Shown here one piece after another: positions 49,848 to 50,313 of a stretch of DNA of 64,000 bases. The notes under the pieces are model-generated. The model was not told the origin of the DNA and made no database searches. It was given only the letters and a program-made list of their open reading frames with translations. This DNA is from Eledone cirrhosa (taxonomy: Eukaryota), in the NCBI GenBank assembly GCA_964016885.1, contig OZ024741.1:399962001-400026000 (forward strand). Reading direction: 5' to 3'. Each line of letters begins with the position of its first letter. Within the stretch, counting starts at the first letter, position 1. A program made the position numbers and the translations under genes.

Positions 49848-50313
49848 TAAAAGAAATAGGATTTCGCTTCAAGCATAGCTTTATACAATACGTATAAATA
49901 TTTCGTATCTCCAAAGAAATACGGTTTTAGGAAGCCGTAGCTATGCAAACACCGGGGGGGGGGGGGGGACTAAAGCCCTCTGGTGATGTCGAGCGGAAGC
50001 AAGGGGGACAACCGTCTATGCATTTCAGGCTTAACTGGCCTTCGTCAGGACGGTCCCTCCCACCGTTTGCGACTGCTGGACTAGAAGACAGGCGAGACTA
50101 TATACTTTTCTCGTCTGTGTAAATGAAGTGATTAATCTCATTTGCATATGAAGCTGCATAAGTTGGCTCAACTTATAATAAAAAAGAAATAGGATTTCGC
50201 TTCAAGCATAGCTTTATACAATATGTATAAATATTTTGTATCGCCAAAGAAATACAGTTTTAGGAAGCCATAGCTATGCAAACACCGGGGGCCTAACACC
50301 TTCTGGTGATGTC
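49848..50313 (-). mobile_element. Tandem 1.4-mer (about 333-bp period) hammerhead element between (TA)n tracts, retrozyme-like
   Basis: 49848-49990 is repeated at 50181-50312; a single hammerhead lies in the unique middle. Confidence 0.85.
50011..50054 (-). ncRNA. Minimal type I hammerhead ribozyme
   Basis: accgtc-CTGACGA-aggc cagttaa gcct-GAAA-tgca-TA/gacggt; perfect stems I and II, palindromic ATGCAT stem III. Confidence 0.9.

What the first reader, a model, noticed from the sequence alone, without database searches (positions are those of the whole stretch)
49848..50313. About 333-nt retrozyme-like monomer present as a 1.4-mer with a perfect hammerhead
Seen: a 140-bp direct terminal repeat, period about 333 bp, (TA)n on both sides, no credible ORF, and one flawless minimal hammerhead (50011-50054, minus strand). 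Inference: a more-than-unit-length copy is what reverse transcription around a small circular RNA, or a pLTR-type template jump, would produce.
Basis: partly seen in the sequence, partly recalled or inferred. Interest (0 to 1): 0.8.

Follow-up and report, generated by a model that had tools for sequence, protein, structure and literature searches.

The report
Hammerhead mini-retroelement riding Penelope machinery
This 464-base insertion is one of many hundreds of scattered copies of a non-coding 323-base repeat unit that carries a hammerhead ribozyme fold and bears the insertion marks of Penelope-type jumping genes; it likely borrows their enzyme and was likely copied from a small RNA circle, a known idea that this family makes easy to test.

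Summary
Observation confirmed with small corrections. The insertion (49850-50313) is 1.4 copies of a closed 323-bp unit (333 here because a G-run expanded), read on the minus strand, with a type I hammerhead at 50010-50055. The genome holds 772 exact 15-nt hammerhead anchors, dispersed in (TA)n; only 22 tandem pairs, longest copy 2.7 units, no arrays. Copies have two fixed 3' ends 38 nt apart (the Penelope 'tail'), random 5' ends and a head-to-head inverted arm in 55 of 81 loci: the full Penelope-like (PLE) insertion signature. No copy runs into a shared coding parent (0 recurrent exits, 146 loci). A sister family (339 bp, 85% identical) shows four compensatory pairs in the ribozyme and a 75-nt invariant block holding GTTGAGC, a motif also found before the ORF of three coding Hydra-type PLEs here. 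Repeats within one insertion share subfamily variants (51 of 53), and 5' ends do not pile up at the cut site, which favours a circular or end-joined template. No RNA evidence was available. Verdict: a dispersed, non-arrayed variant of animal non-LTR retrozymes / non-autonomous PLEs; the window copy is probably a dead-end product.

The parts
49789..49849 (.). (TA)n target at the 3' end of the element
   Evidence: 145 of 190 free 3' ends in 111 loci abut a microsatellite
49850..50313 (-). whole insertion, 1.4 units of a 323-bp non-coding unit
49850..49887 (-). 38-nt 'tail' between the long (49850) and short (about 49888) fixed 3' ends, inferred to be two reverse-transcription start sites
   Evidence: 3' ends cluster at unit positions 315-5 and 31-46; interpretation from PMC11167929
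49850..49990 (-). 3' copy of the direct repeat (pseudo-LTR), with a G-run expanded to 15 at 49954-49968
   Evidence: run length is 6 in 65 of the copies counted
49988..50081 (-). predicted extended stem I that pairs the two sides of the cut site; weakened in this copy by changes at 49991, 49995 and 50066
50010..50055 (-). type I hammerhead ribozyme fold, predicted cut between 50017 and 50016
50106..50180 (-). 75-nt block identical between the consensus of this family and that of its sister family, lying just 3' of the long start site; candidate RT-binding element
   Evidence: chance about 0.003; role inferred
50166..50172 (-). GTTGAGC motif, also 12-16 nt past the long 3' end in coding PLE families HyA and HyB and just before the ORF of a third
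50183..50313 (-). 5' copy of the direct repeat, ending at a random truncation point
50316..50339 (.). (TA)6(CA)6 flank at the 5' end; no target-site duplication can be resolved

Best explanation
It is a copy of a dispersed non-coding 323-bp element with a hammerhead fold and Penelope-type insertion ends, likely moved in trans by a Hydra-clade Penelope-like protein that likely copies a ribozyme-made unit-length RNA circle. Steps: (1, inferred) one of the few loci with two same-sense hammerheads is transcribed; the two ribozymes would cut as a dimer and release a 323-nt RNA whose ends are held together by the long stem I and would be ligated. (2, inferred from a related PLE in vitro) the PLE protein binds the conserved block behind the start sites, nicks (TA)n on one or both strands and starts reverse transcription inside the RNA at one of two sites 38 nt apart. 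(3, footprint shown, cause inferred) it runs across the cut site and the unit junction and stops at random after 0.3-2 units, giving partial tandems; a second arm primed from the other strand at the other start site gives the head-to-head inverted copy. The window copy has one hammerhead and no conserved block behind its 3' end, so it is probably a dead-end product and not a source.
For: Family: 323 exact 39-nt and 772 exact 15-nt hammerhead matches, controls 0 and 2. In 81 loci taken in genome order: 145 arms, none of 2 units or more, 55 loci with both orientations. In 111 loci 167 of 190 free 3' ends fall at two sites; of 50 head-to-head pairs with both ends at these sites 46 have one long and one short end, matching the two internal start sites and two-strand extension of PMC11167929. 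52 of 126 arms with a fixed 3' end pass one unit. 5' ends within 150-165 (cut at 157|158): 3 of 145 (7.2 if uniform) and 1 of 49 in a set not chosen for the ribozyme; no indel at positions 151-191 in the arms of L001-L030. Subfamily site 66 agrees between the two direct repeats in 51 of 53 (p 1e-9) and in 50 of 52 inverted pairs; no position shows a fixed first-copy/second-copy difference. Sister family: four pairs changed on both sides, none broken, within the hammerhead consensus. Unit folds as a circle at z -6.5, sister -7.1. Hydra link: (TA)n target and Hydra motifs (RWK/RWR, DKT, YRDD), shared GTTGAGC, and four copies joined without a (TA)n spacer to HyB or a HyB-like sequence (L023, L052, L100, L208).
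Against: No RNA data at all. PMC11167929 found that cleavage was not needed for insertion in vitro, that uncut RNA was the main substrate, and no RNA reads ending at the cut site. Overall mismatch between direct repeats (5.19%) is about that of unrelated copies (5.46%), and the window copy's own repeats share no non-consensus base (5 differences in 103 sites); rare shared alleles in direct repeats are 6 independent cases against about 2 expected once L011 and a double count are removed. One dominant master at a time, or later gene conversion, could also make repeats agree. Outside the ribozyme the predicted circle fold shows 0 double changes, 2 one-sided and 5 broken pairs, so only the hammerhead fold has covariation, and that from a single family split. 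No promoter was identified. No coding PLE shares the unit's sequence; HyB occurs about once per 55 kb in unrelated DNA, so the chimeras are only suggestive.
Confidence: 0.58

Rival explanations
1. Same element and same PLE helper, but the template is linear: either an uncut read-through transcript of a rare 2-3-unit master, or a cut monomer whose two ends are held by stem I so that the RT jumps from the 5' end to the 3' end without ligation.
For: 2.38- and 2.69-unit copies exist (L205, L189); uncut RNA was the main substrate in vitro; a precise end-to-end jump leaves the same footprint as a circle.
Against: Only 22 tandem pairs among 772 anchors; L189 looks like a later duplication of one period; no unit-position-specific variants such as a linear master would pass on; no pile-up or scar at the cut site; the ribozyme fold was kept through four double changes.
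Confidence: 0.33
2. The copies are 5'-truncated ends (pseudo-LTR stumps) of a long coding PLE.
For: Ends, inversions and target are those of PLE stumps; other hammerheads in the window are such stumps of a coding family (L077); only about 146 of roughly 1000-2000 loci were inspected.
Against: Arms long enough always return from unit position 323 to 1; 0 recurrent exits into a common foreign sequence among 304 free ends of 146 loci and 58 of 28 sister-family loci; the closed unit persists in the 339-bp sister family; no similarity to HyA or HyB DNA; the 42-aa peptide does not match Hydra N-termini (100 of 500 shuffles score as high).
Confidence: 0.06
3. The direct repeat arose at the DNA level (satellite-like unequal crossover or local duplication) after insertion of a monomer.
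For: Two loci show later DNA-level duplication (L011/L189; L092).
Against: The partial repeats begin at the same fixed 3' ends, end at random, are as diverged as the insertions are old, and never grow into arrays.
Confidence: 0.03

Closest known systems
Animal non-LTR retrozymes (Cervera and de la Pena 2020, PMC7229834; Li et al. 2026, 10.64898/2026.07.22.740005)
   Same: Non-coding unit of 150-450 bp, GC under 50% (0.44), canonical type I hammerhead with short palindromic helix III, strongly self-paired circle fold, coexistence with PLEs.
   Different: No arrays (longest 2.7 units, most under 1.5), head-to-head inverted arms in two thirds of loci, fixed two-site 3' ends in (TA)n, no resolvable target duplication; circular RNA not shown; no pLTR-sharing parent found, unlike 24 of 57 Xenopus families with Repbase matches.
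Endonuclease-bearing Penelope-like elements, Hydra clade (Craig et al. 2021, PMC8557442); PAc mechanism (Frangieh et al. 2024, PMC11167929)
   Same: Partial tandem with pseudo-LTR, random 5' truncation, inverted 5'-adjacent copy, 30-40-bp tail at one end, (TA)n target, hammerhead upstream of the 3' ends.
   Different: No RT or GIY-YIG ORF; the repeating unit is 323 bp, not about 3 kb.
Non-autonomous Chlamys elements such as MRC1 (PMC8557442)
   Same: Non-coding PLE passengers that form pseudo-LTRs and head-to-tail copies.
   Different: Those mostly resemble their autonomous partners at the 3' end and mostly lack hammerheads; this one has a hammerhead and shares only a 7-nt motif with the coding families inspected.

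Membership tests
non-LTR retrozyme | type I hammerhead in each unit | tested here: met
   core and stem III intact in 32 of 47 copies not chosen for the ribozyme
non-LTR retrozyme | non-coding unit of 150-450 bp | tested here: met
   323 bp
non-LTR retrozyme | organised as tandem repeats with at least two consecutive hammerheads | tested here: inconclusive
   met by 7 of 145 arms and 22 pairs genome-wide; not met by the window copy; no long arrays
non-LTR retrozyme | stable self-paired circle fold | tested here: met
   predicted only: z -6.5 family, -3.5 window copy
non-LTR retrozyme | self-cleavage and accumulation of unit-length circular RNA | not testable with these tools
   no RNA holder listed
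non-LTR retrozyme | loop 1 - loop 2 tertiary contact nucleotides | not tested
   stem I continues into a long interrupted helix
Penelope-like element (autonomous) | RT plus GIY-YIG ORF | tested here: not met
PLE-mobilised non-autonomous element | fixed 3' ends with a 30-40-bp tail at one end | tested here: met
   38-nt tail; 46 of 50 pairs long+short
PLE-mobilised non-autonomous element | random 5' truncation, partial tandem, inverted 5'-adjacent copy | tested here: met
PLE-mobilised non-autonomous element | sequence shared with an identified autonomous partner | tested here: inconclusive
   no alignable partner among two full-length families; shared GTTGAGC; four direct junctions with HyB-type DNA
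plant LTR retrozyme | type III hammerhead in both LTRs | tested here: not met
   type I, one copy, between the repeats

The most novel reading that the evidence does not exclude
A ribozyme-made 323-nt RNA circle parasitises Hydra-clade Penelope proteins through a 75-nt recruiting element whose GTTGAGC box is shared by unrelated Hydra families, and its hundreds of 0.3-2-unit insertions are a direct genomic record of rolling-circle target-primed reverse transcription, with both strands of the target primed on the same RNA at two different start sites.
Probability: 0.4. Interest if true: 0.68.

Novelty: new variant of a known kind. Interest (0 to 1): 0.45.

Why it matters
Whether Penelope-like elements and animal retrozymes integrate from circular RNA, and what their hammerheads are for, is still open: the circle model was proposed in 2014 (PMC4209133), while the one in vitro study found cleavage dispensable (PMC11167929). 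This family is a compact test case: a 323-nt template, near-intact candidate helper ORFs in the same genome, a ribozyme kept by compensatory change, mapped start sites and a candidate binding block. It also links retrozymes and PLEs by insertion footprint, not only by co-occurrence. The single locus has no sign of a host function.

Tried and rejected
Rfam finds no hammerhead here at either threshold. No RNA holder listed; four contig sets of unrecorded kind were laid on the element and on a coding stretch and could not tell DNA from RNA or show ends. PF26215 is not in the library. The pattern was mis-designed and gave nothing usable; the pattern for an intermediate variant gave only the 2 loci already held. 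A relic Hydra N-terminus in the 42-aa ORF (50031-50159) was rejected. Tail-to-tail neighbourhood with HyB through (TA)n (5 of 111 loci) was set aside as explicable by a shared target. L011/L189 was removed from the shared-variant count as a likely later duplication or assembly error. A simple fold-back origin of the inverted arm is disfavoured: the long-ended arm reaches further in 13 pairs, the short-ended in 18, equal in 2. Pfam found nothing in the two full-length Hydra-type ORFs. Literature searches showed no description of this family; Repbase/Dfam and the preprint's supplements could not be consulted and may already list it. Target-site duplication cannot be resolved in (TA)n.

Full report
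Observation. The sequence is as described: a direct repeat of 141 and 131 bp with 9 substitutions and a G-run difference, spacing 333 then 323, (TA)n flanks, no ORF over 59 codons. The hammerhead lies on the minus strand at 50010-50055 with a predicted cut between 50017 and 50016; no such motif arose in 60 simulated windows. Its anatomy fits what PMC4209133 (part 1 of 4 and passages read) calls the canonical metazoan type I form with a weak palindromic helix III that works as a dimer. Five more hammerheads of other families lie in the same window, so ribozymes of this class are commonplace in this 3.0-Gb animal genome.

Family. The 464 bases drew 2265 candidates (40 scored); exact patterns gave 323 (39 nt), 772 (15 nt) and 336 (38 nt of the 3' part) matches. 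I examined the 30 best matches, 81 loci from the first 100 listed matches (5 duplicates dropped, 2 already held), 22 tandem pairs and 26 loci chosen by the 3' part (4 duplicates dropped). The unit is 323 bp; median divergence from the consensus is 2.85% in 133 arms chosen for an exact ribozyme. Of 145 arms in the 81 loci, 48 exceed one unit, 7 hold two hammerheads and none reaches two units. Genome-wide only 22 tandem anchor pairs exist and the longest copies are 2.38 and 2.69 units. There are no arrays in the assembly.

Ends. In 111 loci, 89 free 3' ends (RNA sense) lie at the unit start, 78 about 38 nt inside and 23 elsewhere; 145 of these 190 abut a microsatellite; 5' ends are spread evenly, and 161 of 201 join another arm of the element. 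Of 68 head-to-head pairs, 50 have both ends at the two sites and 46 of these are long plus short. This is the PLE signature given in PMC8557442 (passages and section 11 read) and PMC3846280 (passages). PMC11167929 (parts 1-2 of 4 read) showed for a lizard PLE that the tail lies between two internal start sites, that both strands are cut and extended, and that RNA beyond the start sites is required.

Not the end of a coding element. No two loci leave the unit at the same point into the same foreign sequence (304 free ends in 146 loci; 58 in 28 sister-family loci). Two full-length coding families, HyA and HyB, with Hydra motifs, share no alignable DNA with the unit. The 42-aa ORF is not a Hydra relic. 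A rarer or more diverged parent is not excluded.

Selection on the ribozyme. An older sister family is also a closed unit, 339 bp and 85% identical. Within the hammerhead its consensus differs at ten positions: four pairs changed on both sides and the two tolerant core positions. On 27 rows chosen for an intact core, 93% of cells pair against 17-44% for slid controls; this reflects one family split, four events. Outside the ribozyme the predicted fold has no double change and five broken pairs. A 75-nt block just 3' of the long start site is identical in both consensuses (chance about 0.003) and contains GTTGAGC, which also stands shortly before the ORF in HyA, HyB and a third family, with one mismatch in a fourth; the window holds 4 such 7-mers in 64 kb.

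Template. If, as in the lizard element, RNA behind the start site is needed, the template must continue past the element's 3' end into this block, which only a circle or a longer tandem offers (inference). 52 of 126 arms pass one unit, yet suitable long masters are rare. 5' ends do not gather at the cut site (3 of 145; 1 of 49). Subfamily site 66 agrees in 51 of 53 direct repeats, L011 excluded, and 50 of 52 inverted pairs; rare alleles are shared by inverted arms 35 times against 4.5 expected, by direct repeats only 6 independent times against about 2. Against this: overall repeat divergence equals that of unrelated copies, a single active master or gene conversion could explain agreement, a jump between the ends of a cut monomer gives the same picture, and cleavage was dispensable in vitro. 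No RNA run was available.

Helper. The (TA)n target, the shared motif and four direct junctions with HyB-type DNA among 146 loci (one more with another Hydra-type family, L193) point to Hydra-clade proteins; HyB is frequent in unrelated DNA (3 places in 167 kb), so the partner is not established.

Comparison and verdict. It works like an animal non-LTR retrozyme (PMC7229834, parts 2-3 of 6 read; bioRxiv 10.64898/2026.07.22.740005, parts 1 and 3 of 5 read) and inserts like a PLE. It differs from described retrozymes in being dispersed, never arrayed and usually inverted. The circle-as-template idea is in PMC4209133. Earlier scan notes (unchecked) describe similar PLE-type minis in other genomes; one was judged a by-product of an abundant parent, which is not the case here. 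Interest 0.45.

Noticed in passing
window 5447 (+), 6356 (-), 6677 (+), 15891 (-), 15935 (+): Five more type I hammerheads of two other families, two of them as inverted pairs; the 15891/15935 type also sits in the pseudo-LTR of a coding Hydra-type PLE in L077.
   Followed up: partly
window about 12050-15600; ORF piece 14628-15056: Rearranged, broken Hydra-type PLE (GIY-YIG piece, inverted RT piece); close relatives with 736-786-aa open frames exist elsewhere (L148-L152).
   Followed up: partly
L184:3436-5562; L149:3012-5366: Two full-length Hydra-type PLE families with non-standard hammerhead-like cores (CAGAAGA in HyB; no match to the descriptor in HyA); activity unknown.
   Followed up: partly
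L149, L184, L095, L077 just before the ORF: GTTGAGC (GTTGAGA in L077) recurs shortly before the start codon in four otherwise unalignable Hydra-type families; not seen in the papers read.
   Followed up: partly
L241-L270: Older sister family, closed 339-bp unit, 85% identical, with a 17-nt extra hairpin segment and the same two 3' ends.
   Followed up: yes
L023, L052, L100, L208, L193: Chimeric insertions in which the element joins coding-PLE sequence without a (TA)n spacer.
   Followed up: partly
L189 (G000:C1:273909421): 2.69-unit copy in which one full period is duplicated without a difference, breakpoint near the cut site; recent duplication or assembly error.
   Followed up: partly
window 50026 in run X4: One contig set of unrecorded kind is dominated by a variant with 9 letters missing in the hammerhead stem II region.
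   Followed up: no
window 2292-2870 (-), 58713-59240 (-), 24882-24939 (-): An open stretch with a VWD domain match, a LINE-type RT fragment, and a tRNA-like match.
   Followed up: no
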